A program made the position numbers and the translations under genes. Positions 5,797 to 64,000 of a stretch of DNA of 64,000 bases are shown here, in pieces. The DNA is from Octopus vulgaris. Lineage: Eukaryota. The DNA lies in assembly GCA_951406725.2 (NCBI GenBank), contig OX597814.1, positions 172,050,001 to 172,114,000 on the forward strand, in the 5' to 3' direction. Each line of letters opens with the position of its first letter. Position 1 is the first letter of the stretch. A model generated the notes under the pieces. That model had not been told where the DNA came from and made no database searches. It saw only the letters and a list, made by a program, of their open reading frames with translations.

Positions 5797-7054
5797 CAGA
5801 GATTGGACAAAATAATGGAAACACCTAGCATCATAGCATCATAATTTTGAAATATCTATAAAACTGTCAAAAGCTTGTTTATTTTTATGTTTTTTTTATT
5901 CATTATTAGTGTTGCTTAATGTGTTTTGTTAAAATTGCTGTTTCTTTTCAGATATCATCAGAAAAAGGTAATTAAAATTCATTAAAATGACAGATCTTTC
6001 GGATTGTTGGTGCTCGTATAGCAGGTGCTAGCGTAACGGAAACAGCCGAAGTGTTCGGTGTATCAGCAAGTACTGTCTCGAAAGTTATAACAGCCTTTGA
6101 GAAAGTGGGAAAAGCCTCCTCTTCGAAACAAATCTCCGGAAGAAAACCAAAACTTTCAGATAGGGACCGTCGGACTCTTACGCGAATTGTTAGAAAAGAT
6201 CACAAAAGTACAGCTCCCAAAATTACTGCAGAACTTAATGTCCACCTCGAGAACCCAGTTTCCACAAAAACTGTTCGCCGGGAGCTGCACAAAGCCAGAT
6301 TTCATGGGAGGGCTGCAATATGAAAACTACTATTTTCAAAACAAACGTTGCAAGCGTTTAGAGTGGAGTAAAAACCTACAGATTTGGTTCCTAGAGCAGT
6401 GGAAGAATATAATTTTCTCGGGCGAGTCATACTTTACTTTATTTCCGACCACCGGCCGAGTAGACGTGTGAAGACAGCCAAAAGAAGCATTTGACCCAGA
6501 CTGCCTACTTCCAACTCTTAAACACAGAGGCGGATCTGTAATGATCGGGGGCGGGGCTATATCTTGGAAATTCGCTGACCAATGGTTTCCCTTCTTGACA
6601 GAATTAATAACCAAGGCTATCTAAGCATTTTATCTGATCAAATTCATCATGTGGTTGCGGAACTGCTTCTGGGGAGAAACGCAATCTTTCAGGATGATAA
6701 CGTACCAATTCACACAGCTAAAGTTGTTACTAAATGGCACGAGGAACATTCTAGTGAAGTTGAACATCTTATCTGGCCACCACAGTCTCCAGATTTCAAT
6801 ATTATTGAACGTTTATGGTGCATTTTAGAAAAAAACAAGTAAGGAGTCGGTATCCTCCATCATCATCACCACAAGAACTGGAAACTGTTTTAGCTGAAGA
6901 ATGGACAAAAATTCTTTTGGAAACAATTCAAACTTTGTATGAGTTCATACCTCGTAGAATTCAAGCTGTAATTACTGCCAAAGGCCGTCCTACTCCATAT
7001 TAAAATTAATTTGTTTGAAATTTTAAGGTTTTTCCATTACTTTGCCCAATCTTG
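5797..7054 (+). mobile_element. Full-length decayed Tc1-family DNA transposon
   Basis: TA target duplication at 5795-5796 and 7055-7056. About 30-bp TIRs: cagagattggacaaaataatggaaacacct / aggtttttccattactttgcccaatcttg. Internal transposase fragments. Confidence 0.93.
5987..7003 (+). pseudogene. Tc1 DD34E transposase pseudogene
   Basis: HTH region with GRKPKLSDRDRR, then IIFSGES (first catalytic D mutated to G), FQDDNVPIH, WPPQSPDFNIIERLW and C-terminal KGRPTPY*. Split over four ORFs by frameshifts and stops. Confidence 0.92.
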
Positions 7055-9050: not shown

Positions 9051-9105
9051 CAAATATCGGTGGTAAAAGGCGACATTTTTGGTAGCAATATTATCACGTT
9101 CTAAA

Positions 9106-9556
9106 GGCGGCGAGCTAGTAGAATCGTTACCGTGCCGGGGAAATGCTTAGGAATATTTCTTCCGTTCTGAGTTCAAACGCCGCCGAGGTCGACTTTGCTA
9201 TTCATCCTTTCAGGGTCGATTAAATAAGTACCAAATACGCACTGGGGTCGATGTAATCGACTTAATCCCTTTGTCTGTCCTTGTTTGCTCCCTCTATGTT
9301 TAGTCCCATGTGAGCAATATATAAATAAATATTAGCACGTCCTAAAGGCTGCGAGCTGGCAGAATCGTTACTGCGCCGGGAAAAATGCTTAACAGTATTT
9401 CTTCCGTTGTGAGTTCAAACGCCGCCGAGGTCGACTTTGCCTTTTATACTTTCGGGGTCGATGGTATAAGTACCAGCTGAAAAGTGGTGACGATATAATC
9501 AATTTATCCTCTCTCCGAACTTTTTGGCCTTGTGCCAAAATTTGAAATCAATATTA
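9106..9556 (+). mobile_element. Two adjacent family A SINEs with different 3' tails
   Basis: The first (to about 9327) ends tttgtctgtccttgtttgc..aaata. The second (from about 9347) ends ggccttgtgccaaaatttgaaatcaatatt. The duplicated flank aatatta(t/g)cacgt(t/c)ctaaa brackets the first copy. Confidence 0.85.
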
Positions 9557-12052: not shown

Positions 12053-13414
12053 TAAATTTAAATCATCAGAAAATGGAGAAAATTTTGATCAACAAACAAA
12101 CAAATTAACCAACATTGGTTCCAATGTTAGTCGGTGCTTACGAAAGAAATTCGGAAAATAATATTCGTCATCTTCATAGTACACTCGATCTAGTACATGG
12201 AGCTTCATCAGAGTAAATAAAATAAAATAAACAAAGGGAAGAGGAAAGAGCAGGGCCTCGAGATGAGGCCAGAAGGCTCAATATATTAAGATCATGCCAT
12301 GTTGCAGCGTGGAGCTTGAAGTCGATAGGCGAAAGAGTGAACTAGCAGTGATCTAAGGAAATTTTTATGGGTTGTTTCTATATAAGGGGGGGGGGACCAG
12401 GGAGGGAATAGCTATGAAATGAAGTTGGTACTAAAATAAGAGAGAGACTACCAATATGTCTAGAAAAAAGAATAATACTTATGATATCATAAATAGAGCT
12501 AATTAATATTTATCCAAAATAAAACTGTAGAGTTCTTATAATGGTGTACTTACTGAAATATTCTAGAGACCACCACCTGTTGCCCGTAATGGAATTAACC
12601 AAAGTCCATTCATCTCTACAATTGGTCAATTATATTTAAACCAAGGACAAAGTTAAGACGCTTACAGGGGTAGGCGTAAATAAAGAAGTAAATGAACCGG
12701 TAAATAAAAGGTGCGGGGGAGGAAACTGCGACATAAGTGGCACGAGGCCGTTTATGCCTATCTACAACATCTCAACATAACAAATAAAAATAAAATAAAA
12801 ATGAAATAAAAAGTAAAATAAAAAATGTGCCACTTATGTCGCAGTTTTCTCCCCCGCACCTTTTATTTACCGGTTCATTTTATTCTTTATTTACGTCTAC
12901 CTCTGTAACGGTCTTAACTTTGCCCTTGGTTTAAATATAATTGATCAATTGTAGAGATAGATGGACTTTGGTTAATTCCATTACGGACAGGAGGTGGTGG
13001 TCTCTAAAATATTTCAGTCAGTACACCATTTTAAAAATTCTACGGTTTTTGTTTTGGATAAATATTAATTAGCTCTATTCACGATATCATAAGTATTTAT
13101 CGACCCCGAAAGGATGAAAGGCAAAGTCGCCGAAGTCGACTTTGCCTTTCATCCTTTCGGGGTCGATAAATTAAGTACCAGTTACGCACTGGGGTCGATG
13201 TAATCGACTTAATCTGTTTGTCTATCCTTGTTTGTCCCCTCTGTGTTTAGCCCCTTGTGGGTAGTAAAGAAATAGATATCATAAGTATTATTCTTTTTTC
13301 TAGTCGTATTTGGTAAACCCTCTTTTATTTTAGTACTAGTTTCATTTCATTACTATGCACAATTCATTAGTTTGTTGATCAAAAGTTTTCTCCATTTTCT
13401 GATTATTTAAATTT
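12053..13414. repeat. Large diverged inverted duplication (foldback) with a SINE inserted in the right arm
   Basis: 12418-12743 is the reverse complement of 12827-13350 once the SINE is removed, and 12053-12100 pairs with 13373-13414. Central spacer is A-rich, about 80 bp. Confidence 0.88.
13098..13274 (+). mobile_element. 5'-truncated family A SINE with 5' inverted duplication and 15-bp TSD
   Basis: TSD gatatcataagtatt at 13083-13097 and 13275-13289. The 5' end is a perfect hairpin of about 33 bp with a 7-nt loop. Confidence 0.9.
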
Positions 13415-23199: not shown

Positions 23200-24182
23200 A
23201 ATGGTTTCAAATTTTGGCTCAAGACAAGCAGTATTTAGGGGAGGCGGTAAATCATTACATCGACTCCAGTGCATAACTGCTACTTATTTTATCGACTCCG
23301 AAACGATGGAAGCGTAGTTGACCTGAGTGGAATTTGAACTCAGGACGTAAGAACTGGAAGAAATGTTGCTTAGCATTTTGTCCGAGATGCTAAAGTTTCT
23401 GCAGCTTGCTGTCTTAGTAATTATTTCTATTATAGGTACAAGGCTTGAAATTTTGGTGAGAGAAAGTAAAGAAACTAATCGATTGTACCAGCCCGGTGTT
23501 TAACTAGTACGTATTTTATCAACGCCGAACGGAAGGCAGAATTGACCTCAATGAAATTTGAACTAAGAACGTAAAGACGGACGAAATACCTGTTTCTTTA
23601 TTAGCCACAAGGGGCTAAACACAGAGAGGACAAACAAGGACAGACAAACGGATCAAGTCGATTACATCGAACCCAGTGCGTAACTGGTACTTAATTTATC
23701 GACCCCGAAAGGATGAAAGGCAAAGTCAACCTCGGCGGAATTTGAACTCAGAACGTAACGGCAGACGAAATACGGCTACGCATTTCGCCCGGCGTGCTAA
23801 CGGTTCTGCCAACTCGCCGCCTTAATAATTTTGATTATTTGCACAAGGCTTCAGGGAAGCGGATAAGTCGATTACATCGACCTCAGTGTTCAACTGGTAC
23901 TTACTTCATCGACCTCGAAAGGATGAAAGACAATGTCAACCTCGGCGAAATTTGAACTCAGAACGTAGCGGCAGACGAAATACCGCTAAGCATTTCGCCC
24001 GGCGTGCTAAAGTTTCTGCCAGCTCGCCGCCTTAATAATAAAAATAATGACAATATACGTGTATAATAACGGTTTCAGATTTTGGCACAAAGCCAGCAAT
24101 TTTAGGGGATTGGTTAAGTCGTTTAAAGCGGCTCCAGTGCTCAACTTATATTTATTTTACAAATAAAAAGCAATAGCCAAGC

Positions 24183-25071: not shown

Positions 25072-25722
25072 ATAATAATAAAAATAATAATAATTGTGTA
25101 CAGTGCTCAGGTGCACTACAACTCATCTAAAGTGTATATATAATCAGGTGTAGTTTCGGCGGATTTCGGAAAGCATGAGGGCCTTAAAGGATGCAGTGTC
25201 ATGGCAGTCAACAACTGACGCAGGCAGTTTATTCCATGCTTCAGCAACTCTGAGCGTGAAAAAATGTTTCCGAAAGTCATGGGAGCTGTGTTGTTTTCTG
25301 ACTTTGTAGGCATGTCCACGTGTGTTAGACACATGGAGATCAAAAAGGTGTTCAGTGTTGTTGTTGGTGAGGTGGTTGATAACCTTGTGGGTGTTTACCA
25401 AGTCCGTCGCCAGACGCCGGAGCTTCAGTGAATCCATGCCCAGGGAAACAAGGCGCTCAGAATATGGTAGGTGTCTGATGGAGGGTATGCGTTTGGTTGC
25501 ACGTCTCTGGACAGATTCCAGGAGGTCAATGTTCTGAGCAAGATAGGGATTCCAAACTGATGATGCGAATTCCAAGTGTGGTCGTACCATAGCTGTATAC
25601 AGTTTTAAATAGATGGCTGGAGAGCGGCTAACAAAAGTCTTGCTGAGTGATGCCAAGACACCCTCGGCCTTCTTGACAATTTTAGAGATATGCTTTGTCC
25701 AACGCAAATCACTGCTGACAGT
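25072..25722 (-). mobile_element. 3' fragment of a CR1/L2-group LINE (RT C-terminus, short 3' UTR, (TTA)n tail)
   Basis: ORF 25144..25782 contains LYTAMVRPHLEFASSVWNPY..LESVQRRATK..YSERL..LGMDSLKLRR..TRGH..FFTLRVAEAWNKLP. It is uninterrupted and 5'-truncated at about 25722. Confidence 0.92.
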
Positions 25723-25796
25723 GCTGCTAAGTCGTTGTATATGACATAACCAAACGTGCGTGCATGTATGTATGTCCATCAATCAATTAATCAATC

Positions 25797-31005: not shown

Positions 31006-32276
31006 CAGACATGCACGAAGTATATAGCAAATTTTAATTTTCAAAATTTCTTAAGCGTTTTTAATGTTTTCAGCGGAGTAGAATTTACAATGTAATTATG
31101 CTTTTTCATTCCAGGTGCCATTATATTAAACATATGCGAAGAGTAACCATGCCACGCACAAAAAATTCAGCAGAACTGTCAGATTTTCAAAGGGGTCGTA
31201 TTCTTGGGCAATCTGAGTCTGGTCTTAGCCAGCGAAAAATTGCCGAAAATCTTCAAATTCCTCTTGCTAATGTTCATAGCATTATAGTGCATTTCAATAG
31301 CCAAGGAAAAGAATCAAAAGGTTCACGTCCCGGCCGACCTGGGCCCTCGGTAAGGAAGCTTCGCTGTTTGAAGAGAATTGTGGAAAACGAAGCTCGTTCG
31401 AAGGCTTCTGACATTGCAAAAGTTAGTCCAAGAACGTGTGTTACATATCTGCATAATCTTGGGTATTATGGACGAGCATCTAGAAGAAAGCCTCTCCTTC
31501 AACCAATTAATATCACGAAAAAAACAACAACAAAAAAACAAGAAATAAGCTAAGGAGATGTCAGAAAAATCCAGTTCATTTTGGGATAGAGTGATTTTCT
31601 CAGATGAATCCAGATTTGCATTATTTTCAGACAGTGGACGTGTTTGGGTCTGGAGGCTTTCCAATAAAGAATTTGATTTGAAACGACTCCAACCAACTGT
31701 GAAACATGGGCGGTATCTCTGTAATGCTATGGGGCGCTCTCAATGGTGGTTCTGAGCTGATCGAAGGTGTTGGAACCATAAACTCTGAAAAATACATCGA
31801 AATACTTAAGCAAGGGCTACTTCCGATGTATTCACACGATAACATAACGAAAAATGAGATTTTATTCATGGAAGATGGGGCTCCATGCCACACAGTGAAA
31901 AGGAATCAACAATGGTTGACTGAAAATGGGATCAAAAAGCTTCCTTGGCCAAGCCATCTCCTGACATGAACCCAACTGAAAATCTTTGGAGCATACTAGA
32001 TAGAGCAATATGAAAAACTCGACAGAAACCTAAATCTAAAGATGAATTGCTTCGATTATTGCATGAAAAGTGGGCAAAAATTCAACAAGAAACAATCACA
32101 AAGCTCATCAGTTCAATGCCAAAAAGAGTTTCTGAATTAAAAACTGCAGAGGAAATGTCAACTAAATACTAAAGTATGTAGTCCTACCTATCGATTATAT
32201 TTCAATTGTTAGCTTTGCATATTAAATAAGAGATTTTGAAAATCAAAGGTGTCTATTTACTTCCTGCATGTCTCTG
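31006..32276 (+). mobile_element. Full-length decayed Tc1-family transposon (second family)
   Basis: TA at the left end. Imperfect TIRs of about 50 bp: cagacatgcacgaagtatatag..ttttcaaaat / attttgaaaa..ctatttacttcctgcatgtctctg. Confidence 0.9.
31149..32172 (+). pseudogene. Tc1 DD34E transposase pseudogene
   Basis: MPRTKNSAELSDFQRGRI..RPGRP..RRKPLL, WDRVIFSDESRF, FMEDGAPCH, LPWPS..PDMNPTENLW, ..STKY*, with frameshifts. Confidence 0.92.
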
Positions 32277-35130: not shown

Positions 35131-35509
35131 AGCTGTACCCAACTAAAAGAGCATTGTGTAATTCTTCGCTTTAATGTTGAATTGCTTTTATATATAATTT
35201 TCATGACTTTTCTGTGATACACGATCCCTATTGATCGATTTTTTTTTCCTTTTTACGATCCCTTTTCATCGAAAACCTACCCAACTTTTTTTTTTCTCTC
35301 TAAAAAGAAAAGCTCTACTTTGTAATTTGTCCCGTCTTTGTTCAGCCCTGTGTGGCTAATAAAGAAATATATATAATTTGACAAACATAACGTACAAACC
35401 AGGATTTGAGCACTTCATCGAAATATGAAAAATTTATGTTTTTTATGCATCCAGGTTGGTTACCTGGGTTTCTAAGCTGCAGTACCCTAAGAAGGCTGTG
35501 TTTACAAAT

Positions 35510-37005
35510 ATTCTTTTCTACTCTAGGTACAAGGCCCAAAATGTTTGGAGAGGTGGGGTGGGGGTAGTCGATTAGATCGACTACAGTATGCAACTGGTAC
35601 TAAATTTATTGATCCCAAATGGCAATGTCGACTTTGGCGGAATTTTAACACAGAACGTAGCGCCTGACGAAATACCTATTTCTTTACTACCCACAAGGGG
35701 CTAAACACAGAGAGGACAAACAAGGACAGAAAGAGGGATTAAGTCGATTATATCGACCCAAGTGCGTAACTGGTACTTATTTAATCGACCCCGAAAGGAT
35801 GAAAGGCAAAGTCGACCTCGGCAGAATTTGAACTCAGAACGTAACGGCAGATGAAGTACCGCTAAGCATTTCGCCCGGTGTGCTAACGATCCTGCCAGCT
35901 CGCCGCTTCGTTTACAAATACATAGTAAGGGTGGTTAATGAGTAGAATCGATCAGATGACAGACAAAACGTCTTGTGGTATTTAGTCTTTTGGCGGCGAG
36001 CTGGCAGAAACGTTAGCACGCCGGGCGAAATGCTTAGCCGTATTTCGTCTGCTGTTACGTTGTGAGTTCAAATTCCGCCGAGGTCGACTTTGCCTTTCAT
36101 CCTTTCGGGGTCGATAAATTAAGTACCAGTTCTGCACTGGGGTCGATGTAATCGACTTAATACCTATGTCTGTCCTTGTTTGTCCCCTCTGTGTTTAGCC
36201 CCTTGTGGGTAATAAAGAAATAGGTATTTAGTCTTTTGTTGTATGTCAACATTCCACCGAGATTAACTTTGCCTTTTAGCCATCGAGGATCAACAAAAAA
36301 TAATGAAAAAAAAAACAGTATCAGGGTACTGGAGAATATGTAATCGACAATTCCCATCCTTCTAATTAGAGGCCTCATGATTATATAAGAAATCACTGTT
36401 ATTTGATAAGCAAAGGCGGAGAGCTAGCAGAATCGTTAACAAGTCGGACAAAATGCTTACTGGCATTTCTTCCGACTTTACGTTCTGCATTCAAATGCTA
36501 CACGCGTTAACTTTGCCTTTCATCCTTTCGAATATCGATAAAATAAGTACCGGTTGACAAGGCTAAGCTGAGAGAATTGTCATCGAGTCGGACAAAATAC
36601 TTGGTGCTATTTCTTCTGAATTTATATTTTGAGTTTAAATGCCGCCGGGGTCGTCCTTGACTTTCATGCTTTCGGTGTCAATAAAATAAATACCAGTCAA
36701 GCAATGGGGTCGATGTAATCGACTTGCTTCCTCCCCCAAAATTGCAAACCTTGCGCTAGAATTTGAAACCAATATTTATTTCTTTACTACCCACAAGGGG
36801 CTAAACACAGAGGGGACAAACAAAGACAGACAAACGGATTAAGTCGATTACATCGACCCCAGTGCGTAACTGGTACTTATTTAATCGACCCCGAAAGGAT
36901 GAAAGGCAAAGTCGACCTCAGCGGAATTTGAACCCAGAACGTAACGGCCGACAAAATACGGCTACGCATTTCGCCCGGTGTGCTAACGTTTCTGCCAGCT
37001 TGCCG
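35510..37005. mobile_element. Cluster of about 7 family A SINEs on both strands, with nested young copies
   Basis: Young copy 35992-36222 (+) has the 15-bp TSD ggtatttagtctttt. Other young copies lie at about 35677-35906 (-) and 36777-37005 (-). Confidence 0.88.
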
Positions 37006-37916
37006 TCTTCTAGAATTCGAAACCAATATTATTCGAATGGCATATATATTTTTAGTAGTTACTTACATCACTGTAATTTCTAAGTTCAAATCCCAGTGGG
37101 GACGATAAAATAAGCACGACTCAAGTATTTTAGTCAATTAGATCAACAAATTGTGGACATCTGCAAAGTTAGACATAAAAATATCATTGCTTCAGTTTTA
37201 CTTAGACTACAGATGGAATGATGAACATCACCACAGCTCATTTGTATTTCACAAGAGACTACAGGGCCATGTGGTTGCAGCCAAGTTTATAGAAATTAAT
37301 AAACACTGATGCAAATGTTATGGCAGCTATTGATGTTGTTGTTTTTGTTGTTGTTGTTGTTGTAACTCTTACAACTGTTACTGCTGTTGGCATTGTTACT
37401 GTTGTTTTCGTTGCTGTTATTGTTGGTTTTTCCATTACCGTTATTTGTGTTGTTTGTTGTTCAATGAACTCGTTTCATTTCTCAGTAGGATAACTGGAGG
37501 CAGAGTCATTTGGCAGAAAATTTCAATGCTGAAACCTTCGCCGTGTTCGCTTCTCAGCTGTGGAGCTTGGGAGAGTTTGTGAGACAGAATTCCTACAAGC
37601 TGAACCGTGAACATCAAAACTTCATTCATGACTGCACCTTGTCGGATCACTGATGTTCAATACATGAAATAATGGATTTTCTATAAAGCAAGCCAAACAC
37701 ACGCGCCTTCTATCCGCCATTTTACTATATGTGGTTTCCAGTTTTCCCCATCTTTCCCTCTCATTCTTATTCACATTGCGTCTCTTTTTCCACTTGTCCT
37801 GCCCGCCCCCCTCTCTCTCTCTCTCCCGCGCACACATTCAACATAACCTCATACACGCACACACACACACATATATAAGAATGTATATATGCATATAGAT
37901 GTATGTGTATATAAAT

Positions 37917-41606: not shown

Positions 41607-41835
41607 TATTGTATAAATAATTATCTATTACCTCCATCTGCGCCAACATTAGCGGCAACGATAATATTAGCAATCTGACCCACAATTCCTACAAAAACAA
41701 CGACAGCAATAAGATCAAAGAACGAAATAAGGTGGCTAGGAAGCCTATACGCAGTCAATCTGCTCTATCTTCCTTAAAAAACTACATTTTTAGGATAAAC
41801 TAAAAATAACAAAAAAATAAATAAAAGGTCTGGTC

Positions 41836-42697
41836 AATTTCTTTATTAACCATGAGGTTGAGAAAAAGAGGGGACGATACGAGGACAGACAAAACAAACA
41901 TTGGGGTTAGGTAATCGAATGAGACGAAACATATGAATAAACGAACAATTAAAATATACACAATTAAATGAGGATGAGTGAGTTACAAAAAATGAAGCGG
42001 AGGACGTTGTTGACCCCACAAACCGCATACACTGAAGACTTTGCTTTCTCTTTTTTATATTCTCGTTTAGACAAGTTCTTTCACTCGCAACATACTTGCT
42101 ATGGACTTCCATCTTTTACGAAACATACTTTGTGACAGGCATTTCTTCTCCAGCCTTATTTTTCGTTTCATGTGGAAGATGAAAAGGTCGATTAGCTCGA
42201 GACTGGAGATGAACATGCCTGTTGCAATTCCTTTCACACTCGTCTTCCATACTACCTTTTTCGCAATAGCAACTACGGAGAGAAAACAGGCTCACTCCTC
42301 CCTATTCATGGAGATCAGCGGAACGATCTTAATTAAAGATTCGCTCGACAGTTGTAATCTTCTCGAATTCGACAGCAGGTGTTCGACATAAGTCCAGAGT
42401 TCAGTCACCTTGGGGCATTGCACAATCGCGTGCAGGACAGTTTCACTGTCCTGCTCGCATATTGCACAAATCGGCGAAGGCGCACACTCATGTCTAAAGA
42501 GCTTATCTCGAACCGGTAAAGCTCCTCTGTAACTTTGCCAGGCCAGGCCAGGGACTTTTGGTAATTATCCATGGCCCCGGCCCGAATGTTCTTTGGAATA
42601 GGTTGGCCAGATTATCTTCGTCGAAGCCTGGGGTTTCACCTAGGACGTCGTCACACTTGAACTCTACTAACCCTCTATAGAAGAACGAGGTAGAATG
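41836..42697 (-). mobile_element. 3' fragment of an L1/Tx1-clade LINE (ORF2 C-terminal zinc finger plus 3' UTR)
   Basis: Minus translation: FYRGLVE..LFQRTFGPG..WQSYRGALPVRDKLFRHECAPSPICAICEQDSETVLHAIVQCPKVTELW..VAIAKKVVWKT..FRKRW..LV* (stop 42067-42069). CxxC..H..C is zf-RVT-like. The UTR ends aataaagaaat. Confidence 0.85.
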
Positions 42698-42770
42698 CGT
42701 CGCCGGGAATCGAACTCAAGATATTATGATCGAGAGCCGAATACCTCTAACTACTAAGCCATACGTCTTC
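42698..42770 (-). mobile_element. tRNA-like SINE head abutting the Tx1 fragment
   Basis: Minus strand gaagacgtatggcttagtagttagagg..gagttcgattcccggcgacgc has A and B boxes. Confidence 0.6.
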
Positions 42771-44515: not shown

Positions 44516-44663
44516 ATATCTGTGTGTGTGAATACACTCATATATATATATATATATATCCGTAATAATGAAGGGTGAAATTAATTAATTTGGAATAATT
44601 ATCAATTACACCAAGTAGTCTTCGGCATGTAAAAGCCTCATTTGAGGAAAATTTAAGTAATAC

Positions 44664-44931
44664 TAAGCAATAAAGGGTTTAGCAACTAGTTGCCTTACCA
44701 CATACCGAATTTAGAAATAGCAGTCAAAGAGTTATAGCTATTTCTTCTACTAAAGGGAGATCTCAGTAAAAACAGCAATTGGAAGGCAGACACAAACAGG
44801 TTTGTGTCTGCCTTCCAATTGCTGTTTTTACTGAGATCTCCTTTTAGTAGAAGAAATAGCTATAACTCTTTGACTGCTATTTCTAAATTCGGTATGTGGT
44901 AAGGCAACTAGTTGCTAAACCCTTTATTGCT

Positions 44932-44933
<2 letters not shown>
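44664..44933. repeat. Near-perfect palindrome, 134-bp arms, 2-nt spacer
   Basis: 44664-44797 versus 44800-44933, one mismatch seen. Confidence 0.95.
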
Positions 44934-44966
<33 letters not shown>

Positions 44967-45038
44967 TTAGGGAATAAATCCAAATTTACAGGGAAAAAAA
45001 TCAGATTTAGGATTAAATCCAATTTTATAGTAAAATAT

Positions 45039-45340
45039 TATAAAATATTATTAGAGACAAAACCACTATTTTGTAAAACAAACAAGGAAAGACTTAATCA
45101 ATACATAAAATTTTAATAAATAGTCAAAAAAACCGCCACTACAATCGCTTCTTGTCTTGATCGACAATCTTCAGGTGGACTTCAATAATTTGAAACTGAC
45201 TTATTGAAGTCCACCTGAAGATTGTCGATCAAGACAAGAAACGATTGTAGTGGCGGTTTTTTTGACTATTTATTAAAATTTTATGTATTGATTAAGTCTT
45301 TCCTTGTTTGTTTTACAAAATAGTGGTTTTGTCTCTAATA

Positions 45341-45350
<10 letters not shown>
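45039..45350. repeat. Near-perfect palindrome, 150-bp arms, 12-nt spacer
   Basis: 45039-45188 versus 45201-45350, with a substitution at 45148/45241. Confidence 0.95.
45211..45253 (+). ncRNA. Minimal type I hammerhead ribozyme with complete core; mirror copy on the minus strand at 45136-45178 has GAAG
   Basis: ccac-CTGAAGA-TTGTC-gatcaa-GACAA-GAAA-CGATTG-TA-gtgg. Confidence 0.82.
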
Positions 45351-45371
<21 letters not shown>

Positions 45372-45609
45372 TGTGAGTTGAATTAAGCAAACACTATATA
45401 TGAGAGAGATTTTCTTTAAGTATTAGAAATAGTTTTAAAAAAGTTTTTTAGCTGCTATTTCTAATGAGTTCAGTATGCGGCAAAGTAATTTATTTTACTA
45501 AGCCCTTTTATATAATGTAATAATTTGAATTCGCCTTAAATGGTCCCTTTGCATACTGAACACTTGGTGAAATTGATTAATAATTAATTAATTTTACCCT
45601 CAATTGTTG

Positions 45610-53594: not shown

Positions 53595-54265
53595 AATATC
53601 CTTTCTACTAAAGATACAAGGCCTGAAATATTTCTGGAAGGATGAAAGGCAAAGTCGACATTGGCGGAATTTGAACTCAGAACGTAGCGGCAGACGAATT
53701 ACCTATTTCTTTACTACCCACAAGGGCTAAACACAGAGAGGACAGATAAACGGATTAAGTCGATTATATCGACCCTAGTACATGAAAGGCAAAGTCGACC
53801 TCGGCGGAATTTGAACTCAGAACGTAACGGCAGACGAAATACCGCTAAGCATTTCGCCCGATATGCTAACGATTCTACCTGCTCGCCGCCTCTCTCATCA
53901 AATAATATCATTCCCACACGTAAGGTGACGAGCTGACAGAATCGTTAGCGGTATTTCGTCCATCTTAATGTTCTGAGTTCAAATTCCACTGATGTAGACT
54001 CTATCTTTCATCTTTTCAGGGTCGATAAAATAAGTACCAGTTGAGCACTGCGGTCAATGTATTCCACTACCTGCTCCACCGAAATTGCTGGCCTTGTGCC
54101 AAAACTTGAAACCATTATCATTGCGTAACTGGTACTTAATTTATCGACCCCGAAAGGATCAAAGGCAAAGTCGACCTCGGCGGAGTTTGAACTCAGAACG
54201 TAACGTTAGAGAAAATACCACTAAGCATTTCGCCCGGCGTGCTAACGATTCTGCCAGCTCGCCGT
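53595..54265. mobile_element. Cluster of four family A SINE pieces, one nested
   Basis: Family A motifs on both strands. Junction gacgaattacc|tatttc at about 53703. Confidence 0.8.
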
Positions 54266-54389
54266 CTAACCAATTCCTCAATACGTTCGAGCCGGTCATT
54301 TAGCTTTCCGACTCACAATAGACCGTCGCTGTCATCGTCAATGTTGCTGCTGTTATCGGTTTTGGTGGTGCTGGTGTCTTCTTCCAATC

Positions 54390-55450: not shown

Positions 55451-56293
55451 GGAGAGAGTAAAACAGAGAGCGTACATTCAAACACGCAAACATTTTACGC
55501 CAATCAATTTCATTAAATTTTTAACCAGCCTTATTCTATGAGAAATAGCCTAAGATGTTATGCAATGGGACCGAACCTATGAACACTTGGTTGTTAAACG
55601 AAAATTTACGAATCTCAGCCTTGCCAATATGATATGTGTTGTTGTCAGTGTTGTTCGTACCACTGAAAAAAGTAGCCACGATGATGTACAGCTAGTGAAA
55701 TATTGATTAAAAAAGCTCAACTGTAAGGTAAGACTTTTGTTTTTTTAGGTTCAGTGGGGGTTGTTGTTTACTGTAATTATTTTTGTACAAACAAGAAGTC
55801 CTCACTGGATTCTGAACTCTGGTCTGCCTGCAGTTGGGCAAAATGGGTTCACGTTAAGTGAATAGTTTTTCTCACTTAATTGTGAGAATTGTTTTGGGGG
55901 CATATCTTGACTCCAAAAATTTGTTCACTTTAAGTGAATAGTTTTTCTTTTTCAAATAATTCTGAGAATTCTCCGAAGATAGAACAACCTCTTTACCAAT
56001 TTTTGGGAAAGCTGTGTTCCAGTTGTGGCGTTCCAGGTTCGAATTGGATAACCAAATAGGCCTGGATTATCTAGTGGCCAGACGAATTTTTGCATGTTGT
56101 GTTTTTTGAACTATAGACTGTTTTCTTTCTTTCTATCTGTTTTTTGTGATTTTCTTTTTTCTTGAGCTGTTTTCTTTTTTCTTCCTTCTTTTTTGTTGTG
56201 ATTTTATTTTGATTTCTTTCTTTTTCTTCCTTCTTTTTGTTTTTTAATTTTTATCTTGAAGTGTTTTTGAACTTTTTTATTACAAAAAAAAAC

Positions 56294-56920
56294 ATGGCAA
56301 AGAAAAAGGACAATATTTTGGAGTGGGAAATTGTCCCACCCAAAACAGTGGATGAAAGACTTTGAAGAGAGGACGGTGGTGTTGAGGACTTATTCCAAGT
56401 CTCTCTACACCATCGCCCTATTTCAAAAGACTGTTATTGAAAGGGAGTTAGAAGAGTATCTGCAAACTATTAAATTTATCTCATGGGGGTCAACGGTGTG
56501 GTTGCTATTTGACACCCCTGAGGAGGCTCGCAAATTTGCGAGCCAGCCCTTTGAGAGCAAAGAGATTTTGTTTCTTCCCACGTATTGTGGGAAGAAGTTG
56601 ACAAGTAATTGGGTCTATGGGTTGCCACCCAGGATAGAACCCGAGTGGATAGAGGAGACTATCCGCCAGGGTCTGGGTGGCAGTGGAGCCAAGCTTCTCA
56701 ATGTGAACATTTTACCTGCGGCTGATTGGGTTGGGTCAAAAGCTGTTTTGACCCTGTGGACCCAATCAGCCAAGAACCTGGTTTTTCCAGAATTTTTTGA
56801 AATGGCTGGGTGCAGGTGTACGATGATTCTTGAGGGTCGCCCTCCAAGTGTTATCAATGCCTGGAGCCTGGCCATATAAAGAAAAACTGCCCCCAGGAAC
56901 ACAGTAAGGTCCTGGTGCAG
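56294..56920 (+). pseudogene. L1/Tx1-clade LINE ORF1 (gag-like) remnant with CCHC zinc knuckle
   Basis: ATG at 56294 (MAKKKDNILEWEIVPP), frameshift into ORF 56331..56879 (..WVYGLPPRIEPEW..ILEGRPP), then a second frameshift into KCYQCLEPGHIKKNCP. A T-rich putative 5' UTR lies upstream. Confidence 0.8.
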
Positions 56921-56925
56921 TCTAG

Positions 56926-57490
56926 AAAATCCACTCACAAGGCTTTGGTCGGCTCGAAGCTATAGTTGAAGACACTTGCTCAAGGTACCACGCAGTGGGA
57001 CTGAACCCAGAACCATGTAGTTGATAAGCAAGCTACTTACCACCACCAAAAAAACAAAAAAACTTATCTGATCTCGTCCCATTTCTTCATTGCCCACAAG
57101 TGGCTAAACATAGAGGGAGCAAACGAGGACAGACAAAGGGATTAAGTCGATTACATCGACCCCAGTGCGTAACTGGTACTTAATTGACCCCGAAAGGATG
57201 AAAGGCAAAGTCGACCTCAGCACAATTTGAACTCAGAACGTAACGGTAGACGAAATACCTATTTCTATAACTACCTACGAGGGGCTAAACACAGAGTGGA
57301 CAAACAAGGATAGACAAAGGGATTAAGTCGATTACATCGACCCCAGTGCGTAACCGGTACTTATTTAATCGACCCCGAAAAGATGAAAGGCAAAGTCGAC
57401 CTCGGCGGAATTTGAACTCACAACGTAACGACAGGCGAAATACCGCTAAGCATTTCATCCGGCGTGCTAACGTTTCTGCCAGCTCGCCGC
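56926..57490 (-). mobile_element. Family B head fragment plus two nested Tx1-tailed family A SINEs
   Basis: 56926-57042 is family B. About 57081-57259 and 57260-57490 are family A. Confidence 0.85.
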
Positions 57491-58254
57491 TCATTTCTGT
57501 TAAACGCCAAGCACTTATCATTTAGTACTTTATTCTATCCCATTTTGTTTCCGTTCGTTTCTGAACCTCGTTTTACAGGTTTATTTGATTTGAGTGACAT
57601 CGAAATCACCTCCTATGTGTTATCTTTCTGAACGTGTTACCGAGATGAGTTGGAGAGATCCGTGTAAGAGCGCAGGCGGTTGACATATAGCAAATTCTAC
57701 CACTATAAACAAAACTAACTCCGGAGGTGGTGGAAAATCTCACATTCACTAAAACCACAGGTAGTCTTTGTCGCACATAATACCACACCTGTCACATCAT
57801 CACATTACAGTAACCACTATTTTTTTAATTTATTACACACGTATAAATAATATTAGTCAGCTATTGACTATAATATTGTTTTACGTTCACAACATAATTA
57901 TTTCTAGATAGCTTTTTACTGCTTCGTATTTTAAGTATATCAACATTAACCTAACTATAGTTTTTCTTGTGGAGAGTATGTCTGAAGTACATGTTTTTTA
58001 AAGAGCGCCGATCCTCATTGGTAACCAATGAAGTGTTTTGTACATTTATTTAATGTTTCTCTCATCGCTATTTCGGAAAATACAGTGATGTTTGTACTTC
58101 GTTGATGATCTCTGCTTGAGGAAAAAACAAGTCGTTAGTCGTCTCTTGTAGTTGTCGTAAAAGAGAATACAATATCAGTTATTCTCAATTATTGCCTGGG
58201 TTGTTTTTGTTTTTGTGTTCTATAATGGATAATTATTGCTTGTCTGCTTTTTAA

Positions 58255-58813: not shown

Positions 58814-58888
58814 TTGCCTCGGTAACTGATGAGATGCCGGAACAGGTTTCCGGCCCGGCATCCGAAACTCGGAGTTTTATTATGGCAA
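58814..58888 (+). ncRNA. Type I hammerhead ribozyme motif with extended stem I
   Basis: ttgcc-tc-ggtaa-CTGATGA-GATGCCGG-..-CCGGCATC-C-GAAA-CTC-g-GAG-TT-ttatt-at-ggcaa. Confidence 0.75.
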
Positions 58889-59080
58889 CCGAATAATTGT
58901 CACGTATTATATTACAGATAAATTCCTCTATTTGCATAATAGCGAGGTCTCTTTCATTCTTTTATCTTGGCATCCGAAACTCGGAGTTTTATTATGGCAA
59001 CCGAATAATTGTCACGTATTATATTACAGATAAATTCCTCTATTTGCATAATAGCGAGGTCTCTTTCATTCTTTTATCTT
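58857..59080 (+). repeat. Perfect 112-bp tandem duplication starting inside the hammerhead
   Basis: 58857-58968 equals 58969-59080. Confidence 0.92.
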
Positions 59081-63383: not shown

Positions 63384-63714
63384 ATATACACGTTAATACG
63401 CTTTTTTCGTCAGACACTATACGTTTCCAGCGACCATCTTCTACACTTTATAATTTTCGTTATTTTGTTCGCCCTCTTCTTTCTTTGTCTTCCATTTTGT
63501 CTTTTTCCAGCTGAATTCAGTTGGTTCTTAGCGAGGTGGGCCTTTTTTTTTCTTTTTGTTATGTCCCCATTGGTTTTAGGGTGAAATAGATATGTGCATG
63601 GATATGTGTGTAAGTAAGTGTATGTAAATCAGTTATGTTTCATTCTGTGTATGAAAGATATGCGTAGGTTATATATATGCATGTGTGTTGTCCTTTTAAT
63701 ATATCTTGCTGATA

Positions 63715-64000
63715 GGTTGCGAGCTGGCAGAATCATTTAGCTCGCCGGGCGAAATGCTTAGCGATATTTCGTCTGCCGCTACGTTCTGAGTTCAAATTCC
63801 GTCGAGGTCGACTTTGCCTTTCATCCTTTCGGGGTCGATTAAATAAGTACCAGTTACTCACTGGGGTTGATATAATCGACTTAATCCGTTTGTCTGTCCA
63901 CTCTGTGTTTAGCCCCTTGTGGGTAATAAAGAAATAGGTATTTCGTCTGCCGCTACGTTCTGAGTTCAAATTCCGCCGAGGTCGACTTTGCCTTTCATCC
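63715..64000 (+). mobile_element. Tx1-tailed family A SINE followed directly by a second copy starting at ggtatttcgtc (runs off the window)
   Basis: ..gggtaataaagaaata|ggtatttcgtctgccgctacg.. Confidence 0.88.

What the first reader, a model, noticed from the sequence alone, without database searches (positions are those of the whole stretch)
41836..41900. Family A SINE tail matches the 3' end of the Tx1-like LINE: a SINE-LINE partnership visible in one window
LINE 3' end (minus): tttgtctgtcctcgtatcgtcccctctttttctcaacctcatggttaataaagaaat. Young SINE A end: tttgtctgtccttgtttgtcccctctgtgtttagccccttgtgggtaataaagaaat. They are colinear over about 57 nt and terminate at the same point. Established: stringent SINEs borrow the partner LINE 3' end, most such partners are CR1/L2/RTE/I-group LINEs, and Tx1-clade elements are often target-specific. 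Inference: a Meta-domain-like SINE was reactivated by capturing a Tx1 tail and inherited its target preference. I do not know this pairing to be described for cephalopods.
Basis: partly seen in the sequence, partly recalled or inferred. Interest (0 to 1): 0.8.

Follow-up and report, generated by a model that had tools for sequence, protein, structure and literature searches.

The report
Self-targeting SINE with a LINE-derived tail
In what is likely an octopus genome, the young branch of a short jumping element has replaced its old tail with 57 bases that match the end of an L1/Tx1-type LINE family, and six of its ten copies here abut one exact base of another, mostly older copy of itself, which likely means that it borrows a site-selective Tx1-type enzyme, a pairing not found in the papers searched.

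Summary
Confirmed and extended. The LINE end (41837-41893, minus) matches the tail of 10 young SINE-A copies at about 75-77% (0 of 20,000 shuffles reach it). In four public runs this LINE family ends at 41833-41837 in many different flanks and continues upstream as ORF2, so no SINE tail merely landed here. ORF2 is L1-group; Tx1 proper is likely but no named reference was available. Older SINE-A copies carry two unrelated tails, so the tail was swapped. Nine of 10 young copies end in A|RRTAWY, four have clear 15-22-bp duplications, and six abut position 48 of another SINE-A copy. Not supported: a Meta domain, and a target shared with this LINE family (its junctions read TGAC or TC-rich). A 168-bp insert at 35201-35368 matches the tail better (86%), so a sister LINE may be the real partner. 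Precedent: crocodilian SINEU/Tx1-Mar (shared target, no shared tail). Earlier scan notes report Tx1-like LINEs hitting SINEs in other genomes, but no look-alike of this DNA. Repbase, Dfam and SINEBase were not available. New variant of a known kind.

The parts
41837..42695 (-). 5'-truncated L1/Tx1-group LINE copy (end of ORF2 plus 3' UTR); family match extends 4 bases further to 41833
   Evidence: loose ends at 42693/42695 agree 0.70-0.88 (element continues in other copies); loose ends at 41833-41837 agree 0.40-0.60 (many flanks)
42067..42695 (-). decayed ORF2 C-terminus: frameshift near 42572, premature stop at 42292-42294, final stop 42067-42069; zf-RVT CCHC domain at about 42394-42561
   Evidence: translation; PF13966 E 2e-10; 52% to full-length EN-RT-zf protein P0166
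41837..41893 (-). 57-nt LINE terminus shared with the young SINE-A tail
42696..42766 (-). tRNA-like head of another SINE family directly 5' of the LINE copy (not SINE-A); no target duplication around the LINE
35992..36222 (+). full-length young (gamma) SINE-A with LINE-type tail, inserted at position 48 of a decayed SINE-A; 16-bp duplication at 35977-35992 and 36223-36238
   Evidence: downstream target half 63% to consensus against 95% for the insert
36777..37007 (-). full-length gamma SINE-A, 21-bp duplication, inserted antisense into the tail end of an old SINE-A
13095..13274 (+). 5'-truncated gamma SINE-A with a 5' inversion (13095-13129) and a 15-bp duplication, outside any SINE-A
9105..9327 (+). 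gamma SINE-A (variant tail) 18 bp upstream of an old SINE-A; its first ~115 bases repeat the private mutations of that neighbour (extended duplication)
23591..23822 (-). gamma SINE-A followed by position 48 onward of an old SINE-A (75% to consensus)
35677..35908 (-). gamma-bodied SINE-A with old-type head, followed by position 48 onward of an older SINE-A (80%)
53704..53890 (-). gamma-bodied SINE-A with old-type head, followed by position 48 onward of another SINE-A (89%)
57260..57491 (-). gamma SINE-A followed by position 48 onward of another gamma copy
57081..57259 (-). gamma SINE-A remainder (variant tail), the target of the copy above; the one copy of 10 without an A|RRTAWY junction
63714..63936 (+). 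gamma-bodied SINE-A followed by position 48 onward of another SINE-A (cut by the window end)
35201..35368 (+). 168-bp non-SINE insert with an 11-bp duplication whose last 43 bases match the SINE tail at 86%; candidate 3' UTR of a sister LINE family (unproven)

Best explanation
The youngest subfamily of a tRNA-like SINE carries, in place of the two older tail types, the last ~57 bases of an L1/Tx1-group LINE lineage, and is likely copied in trans by the ORF2 protein of that lineage, probably a sister family of the copy at 41837-42695 rather than that exact family. Shown: the shared terminus; that it is the true family end of the LINE; the tail swap; the younger age of the tailed subfamily; 15-22-bp duplications and one 5' inversion; the A|RRTAWY junction; six insertions at position 48 of other SINE-A copies. 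Inferred: one template switch created the tailed master; ORF2p binds the tail (a short hairpin is predicted in the same place in SINE, LINE and the 35368 insert); target-primed reverse transcription starts at RRTAWY; when the target is another SINE-A, the cDNA pairs with the homologous target strand, which leaves an old head on a young body or an over-long duplication in place of a normal one.
For: Tail similarity far above chance. Four of 24 listed runs laid (three organism labels): 1,026-2,264 contigs each, depth continuous from 42695 to the tail and collapsing beyond it (bin 41780-41811: 12-679; bin 41844-41875: 23,895-220,679), loose ends with unrelated flanks at 41833 (35, 27, 33, 22 contigs), 41836 (13) and 41837 (7). 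L1-group ORF2. All 10 tailed copies share one body-tail junction; bodies 93-96% to consensus against 76-92% for 14 old-type copies. None of 11 old tails resembles the LINE or young tail (best 79 of 1,000 shuffles). Duplications start 1 base after AAAGAAAT in the 4 of 10 copies that have one. Six of 14 monomers with RRTAWY at 48-53 are hit, 0 of 16 without. LINE copy differs from its family at about 70 places in 860 bases, an age like that of the young SINE.
Against: Tail identity (~75%) is lower than the decay of the two families alone would give (roughly 87%), and the 35368 insert matches better over 43 bases (86%). LINE-family junctions shown read TGAC or TC-rich, not A|RRTAWY (1,096 loose ends not shown). 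No listed contig spans ORF2 to tail in one piece. The hairpin is weak: z -1.0 (SINE), -1.4 (LINE), -2.9 (35368 insert); consensus energy -1.6 with no net covariation. The target motif was chosen after seeing the junctions, n is 10, and two composites (53891, 35912) have 11-22-bp repeats around the whole composite. Tx1 membership is untested against a named reference.
Confidence: 0.72

Rival explanations
1. One reading: this very LINE family (41837-42695) is the mobiliser and the SINE inherited its target site.
For: It shares the whole 57 bases, including the first 15 that the 35368 insert lacks; similar age; abundant in all four runs.
Against: Only about 75% identity; different 3' junction (TGAC or TC-rich against A|RRTAWY); this copy lies beside another SINE family's head with no duplication.
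Confidence: 0.3
2. The composites (young SINE + position 48 onward) are copies of one dimeric master element, or template-switch chimeras made in one insertion, not repeated insertions into older copies.
For: Two composites have flanking repeats around the whole unit; 53891 and 63716 share a 10-base tail deletion and similar downstream halves; five of six lack a normal duplication around the young copy.
Against: Downstream halves are 63, 75, 80, 89, 96 and 98% to consensus against 93-96% upstream and end in different tails; the 36221 copy has a 16-bp duplication holding the target's private mutations on both sides. It may still account for one or two of the six.
Confidence: 0.15
3. A SINE tail landed at the end of this LINE copy, or the LINE inserts just upstream of SINE tails so that the tail is target DNA.
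For: No listed contig spans ORF2 to tail in one piece; an earlier scan note (e1-7591824) describes a LINE end resembling its SINE target in another genome.
Against: Coverage of the tail at 82% likeness or more equals that of the upstream UTR, though the SINE tail is only ~75% alike; a deletion variant joins the tail to UTR letters (41875, 4 contigs, agreement 0.91); junction letters differ from the SINE's; the 5' flank is not a SINE-A body.
Confidence: 0.04
4. Transfer ran the other way: LINE families picked up the tail from the SINE.
For: Sequence similarity has no direction.
Against: The tail is new in the SINE lineage (older copies lack it) yet present in two divergent non-SINE elements (41837 and 35368, local score 31 to each other), so it is older outside the SINE.
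Confidence: 0.05

Closest known systems
SINEU with Tx1-Mar, crocodilians (Kojima 2015, PMC4494074; passages read)
   Same: A SINE inferred to be mobilised by Tx1-clade LINEs, with strong preference for a site in another repeat; tandem or nested copies at that site.
   Different: SINEU has U1/U2 heads and poly(A) tails, no LINE sharing the SINEU-1 3' terminus was detected, and the target is a Mariner transposon. Here the head is tRNA-like, there is a 57-nt shared tail without poly(A), and the target is the SINE's own family.
Stringent SINE/LINE pairs (Ohshima 2013, PMC3747384, Table 1 read; Ohshima 2012, PMC3472496, passages)
   Same: SINE 3' end derived from the partner LINE 3' end, with a predicted stem-loop.
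   Different: Of 58 pairs only 3 have L1-clade tails (maize ZmSINE2 and ZmSINE3, Chlamydomonas SINEX-3_CR); none is Tx1, none is from an animal L1-group LINE, none from a mollusc.
Tail-swapping SINE superfamilies in molluscs: MetaSINEs, CORE-, V-, MESC-SINEs (PMC4824008 passages and supplement parts; PMC4758252 passages)
   Same: One head and body with exchangeable 3' tails, read as partner switching.
   Different: Partners named in the passages read are CR1 and L2, or unknown; SINE-A shows no Meta domain.
Tx1L in Tx1D (Xenopus), Keno, Kibi, Koshi (as summarised in PMC4494074 passages)
   Same: L1-group LINEs with target preference for repeats; some junctions of this LINE family are TC-rich, as for Kibi.
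   Different: Membership of this LINE in Tx1 proper was not tested against these sequences.
Octopus SINEs OK, OR1, OR2 (Ohshima and Okada 1994; not read, only cited)
   Same: SINE-A may be one of these three described families.
   Different: Not testable here; no tail subfamilies, partner or target preference appear in the citing passages.

Membership tests
L1-group LINE (L1/Tx1) | ORF2 with APE endonuclease, RT and C-terminal CCHC zinc domain | tested here: met
   Window fragment has zf-RVT and is 52% identical to the C-terminus of P0166; relatives P0095, P0119, P0126, P0142 carry EN+RT+zf. EN and RT are not in the truncated window copy.
L1-group LINE (L1/Tx1) | RT closer to L1 than to other non-LTR clades | tested here: met
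   P0166 against PDB: human L1 ORF2p E 1e-50, R2 E 4e-22. PDB holds few clades, so CR1, RTE and I were not compared.
Tx1 clade | RT phylogeny groups with named Tx1 elements | tested here: inconclusive
   No protein named Tx1 was returned. The RT region scores higher with amphioxus and fish 'pol-like' proteins (229-239 bits for 321 aa) than the whole protein does with human L1 (175 bits). Its motifs look Tx1-like from recall only.
Tx1 clade | Target-sequence preference | tested here: inconclusive
   Family junctions show conserved TGAC, and TC-rich flanks in two rows; whether TGAC is element or target is unknown.
Stringent SINE/LINE pair | SINE 3' end homologous to the true 3' end of a LINE family | tested here: met
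Stringent SINE/LINE pair | Conserved 3' stem-loop with compensatory changes | tested here: inconclusive
   Same position predicted in three elements, weak z-scores; 1 of 4 pairs with a double change, covariation term +0.42
Stringent SINE/LINE pair | Same insertion signature and overlapping age in SINE and LINE | tested here: inconclusive
   Age overlaps; junction differs for the 41837 family, is closer for the 35368 insert
Stringent SINE/LINE pair | Tail required for trans-mobilisation | not testable with these tools
   needs a retrotransposition assay
tRNA-derived SINE | Head with Pol III A and B boxes, tRNA homology | tested here: inconclusive
   A-box-like and B-box-like stretches by eye, about 60 bases apart; ARAGORN 0 genes; no tRNA hit in Rfam for 35400-37100 at E up to 10
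MetaSINE | 66-bp Meta domain right after a tRNA-Thr-like head | tested here: not met
   Motif from the start of the domain: 0 hits at up to 2 mismatches in the whole window; no likeness by eye to BivaMeta-SINE1 and BivaMD-SINE1. The paper's consensus figure itself was not held.
CORE-SINE (OR1/OR2) | CORE domain in the body | not tested
   No OR1/OR2 sequence available; SINE-A was not aligned to CORE sequences

The most novel reading that the evidence does not exclude
A SINE that, after capturing a Tx1 tail, became a parasite of its own family: it aims between the A and B boxes of older copies, fuses with them by homology, and its own intact head has lost the target base (C for G at position 48 in 4 of 4 young heads), so that it spares itself. 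The aim may come from read-through RNA pairing with the target rather than from the endonuclease, which would explain why SINE and LINE junctions differ. It would be the first animal SINE with an L1/Tx1-derived tail.
Probability: 0.25. Interest if true: 0.72.

Novelty: new variant of a known kind. Interest (0 to 1): 0.52.

Why it matters
L1-group LINEs are the textbook exception to tail sharing: only 3 of 58 catalogued SINE/LINE pairs have an L1-clade tail, all in plants and algae (PMC3747384). An animal L1/Tx1 lineage that donates a non-poly(A) tail would support stringent RNA recognition as the older state of the group, and give a testable system. SINEs are about 12% of the O. vulgaris genome (PMC13282606) and their partners are not named in the papers read; a SINE that inserts into its own family would help explain SINE clusters and would confound repeat libraries, which would split such composites into false families.

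Tried and rejected
No whole genome is held, so no genome-wide consensus or logo. The search for related loci in metagenomes gave 2 loci of 385 candidates, both distant and without a 3' end. Tail patterns: 0 hits in prokaryote genomes and viral contigs. No RNA holder was listed among the runs. Naming the clade through annotated relatives failed. Extension of homology between the 35368 insert and the LINE UTR upstream of the tail was borderline (155 of 5,000 shuffles) and is not counted as evidence. A common origin of old and young tails, suggested by the alignment, was rejected. The idea that the LINE copy sits inside a CORE-type SINE rests on a weak match of the right flank and was not confirmed. 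Rfam gave only chance hits. Sequence look-ups in earlier scan notes found nothing for SINE, insert or LINE.

Full report
Setting. The window is AT-rich, microsatellite-rich animal DNA. An octopod is inferred: the closest named relative of the LINE protein family is from Argonauta hians (72% over the RT region of P0166). No whole genome is held.

Observation. The minus strand at 41893-41837 reads as quoted and aligns to SINE tails at 74-77% over 56-61 columns. Against the tail at 36165-36221 the local score is 46; 20,000 dinucleotide shuffles give 14.2 +/- 2.5, maximum 29. A scan of both strands ranks ten SINE tails first (65-112), then an insert ending at 35368 (56), then the LINE (46), then background (29 or less).

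The LINE. 42695-42067 (minus) encodes a decayed ORF2 end with one frameshift and one premature stop. It has Pfam zf-RVT (E 2e-10), 507 relatives at E up to 0.001 among 1.84 billion representatives, and 52% identity to the end of P0166, a 1,111-aa protein (a second frame matches the preceding 41 residues at 68%). P0166's best solved relative is human L1 ORF2p (E 1e-50; R2 4e-22), and four full-length relatives have EN, RT and zf domains. So it is L1-group. Tx1 proper is likely (higher scores with amphioxus and fish proteins than with human L1; L1-Tx1 has 80 families in O. vulgaris; motif likeness from recall) but no named Tx1 protein turned up.

Is the tail the LINE's own end? I laid 4 of the 24 listed runs on 41780-42720 at 82% likeness. 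Each gave 1,026-2,264 contigs. Depth is continuous from 42695 to the tail, rises towards the 3' end as 5' truncation predicts, and collapses beyond (12-679 in 41780-41811 against 23,895-220,679 in 41844-41875). Loose ends at 42693/42695 agree at 0.70-0.88, so other copies continue upstream. Loose ends at 41833 (35, 27, 33, 22 contigs), 41836 (13) and 41837 (7) agree at only 0.40-0.60, so the family ends there in many flanks. A variant joins 41875 to UTR-like letters (4 contigs). Limits: no listed piece spans ORF2 to tail; 49 difference rows and 1,096 loose ends were not shown, so the family's tail consensus and rarer junctions are unseen. Most contigs match 4 bases past AAAGAAAT (TGAC, then TG in the consensus of all four runs), and two rows run into TC-rich DNA.

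The SINE. SINE-A covers 5,869 bases, 9% of the window. I aligned 31 monomers, leaving out about six short fragments among the hits. One head and body carry three tails: two old ones ending in ATT-type repeats and the LINE-like one (gamma, 10 copies). Gamma bodies are 93-96% to consensus, the 14 old-type copies 76-92%. All gamma copies join body and tail at the same place, so they come from one master. None of 11 old tails resembles the LINE or gamma tail. The head has A- and B-box-like stretches but no tRNA call. A Meta-domain motif from the supplement of PMC4824008 is absent, so 'Meta-like' is not supported; which described octopus family (OK, OR1, OR2) this is could not be tested.

Target. 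Four gamma copies have duplications of 15, 16, 21 and about 22 bp that start one base after AAAGAAAT; the 13273 copy also has a 5' inversion, an L1-type mark (established knowledge). Nine of 10 junctions read A|RRTAWY, a motif at 0.6% of positions. Six copies are followed by position 48 onward of another SINE-A, and two more lie in or 18 bp from an old copy. Only 14 of 759 RRTAWY sites are such position-48 sites; 6 of 9 gives a binomial p of 3e-9, an overstatement because the motif is post hoc and copies may not be independent. Six of 14 monomers with the motif at 48-53 are hit, 0 of 16 without (three of the 14 are upstream halves that repeat the site). Nesting is shown for 36221, whose 16-bp duplication holds the decayed target's own letters. 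For the other five it is inferred from uneven ages (downstream halves 75, 80, 89, 96, 98%) and from old-type heads on young bodies: four have G at position 48 where the young heads at 35992, 37007, 23822 and 60866 have C. The 9105 copy repeats about 115 bases of its old neighbour, private deletion included, as expected if the cDNA paired with the homologous target. Against this: composites 53891 and 35912 have repeats around the whole unit, and 23822 lacks the target's head upstream.

Which LINE is the partner? The 41837 family shares all 57 bases but at ~75%, less than copy decay explains, and its junctions differ. A 168-bp insert at 35201-35368 with an 11-bp duplication matches the last 43 bases at 86%, ends in AAAGAAATA and folds best (z -2.9). 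It has no coding part, so its identity as a sister LINE's UTR is a guess. I put the mobiliser at about 0.3 for this family, 0.5 for a sister, the rest unknown. A hairpin is predicted at the same place in all three elements but is statistically weak.

Known or new. Ten full-text searches found no Tx1-tailed SINE and no partner for an octopus SINE. Read: Table 1 and passages of PMC3747384 (58 pairs, 3 L1-clade, none Tx1 or mollusc); passages of PMC3472496, PMC4494074, PMC4824008 (supplement part 1 of 4 and search hits), PMC4758252, PMC13282606 (supplement search), PMC5804259, PMC8967140, PMC5786205 (no mention of Tx1 or octopus), PMC13295347. Not seen: Ohshima and Okada 1994 and 2005, Repbase, Dfam, SINEBase, subscription journals and bioRxiv supplements, any of which may hold a prior description. 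The nearest case is SINEU/Tx1-Mar: Tx1 mobilisation inferred from a shared target, poly(A) tail, no shared terminus found. Earlier notes of this scan describe Tx1-like LINEs hitting SINEs in other genomes (unchecked), none on this DNA.

Verdict. Real; a new variant of the known SINE/LINE tail-sharing scheme, with an unusual donor group and self-targeting. Interest 0.52.

Noticed in passing
window 35201-35368 (+): 168-bp insert with an 11-bp duplication whose end matches the SINE tail better than the LINE does; candidate UTR of the true partner family.
   Followed up: partly
window 56271-56929 (+): Decayed ORF1-like frame ending in a CCHC zinc knuckle (PF00098 E 3.6e-6), cut by another SINE near 56920; possibly the 5' part of an L1/Tx1 LINE; link to the 41837 family not tested.
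   Followed up: partly
window 35992, 37007, 23822, 60866 (SINE heads): Intact young heads have C instead of G at position 48, which removes the motif at which young copies insert.
   Followed up: partly
window 9087-9512: Extended duplication of about 130 bp (flank plus old SINE head with private mutations) around a young copy.
   Followed up: yes
window 54119-54266 (-): Young-type SINE-A body without tail, joined to the antisense tail end of an old copy at the same spot hit by the 36778 copy.
   Followed up: no
window 25147-25782 (-): 212-aa open frame that looks like the C-terminus of a CR1/L2-type LINE ORF2 (by eye; no Pfam hit).
   Followed up: no
window 5991-7000 (+) and 31065-31553 (+): Decayed Tc1/mariner-like transposase frames (by eye).
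   Followed up: no
window 8301, 17781, 20221, 28021, 33376, 53291: A second SINE family has an internal stretch weakly like the 5' part of the young tail (score 27, within background).
   Followed up: no
window 44580-45420: Long internal inverted repeats (about 44650-44950 and 45070-45330) between TA microsatellites.
   Followed up: no
window 58857-59080: Perfect 112-bp tandem duplication.
   Followed up: no
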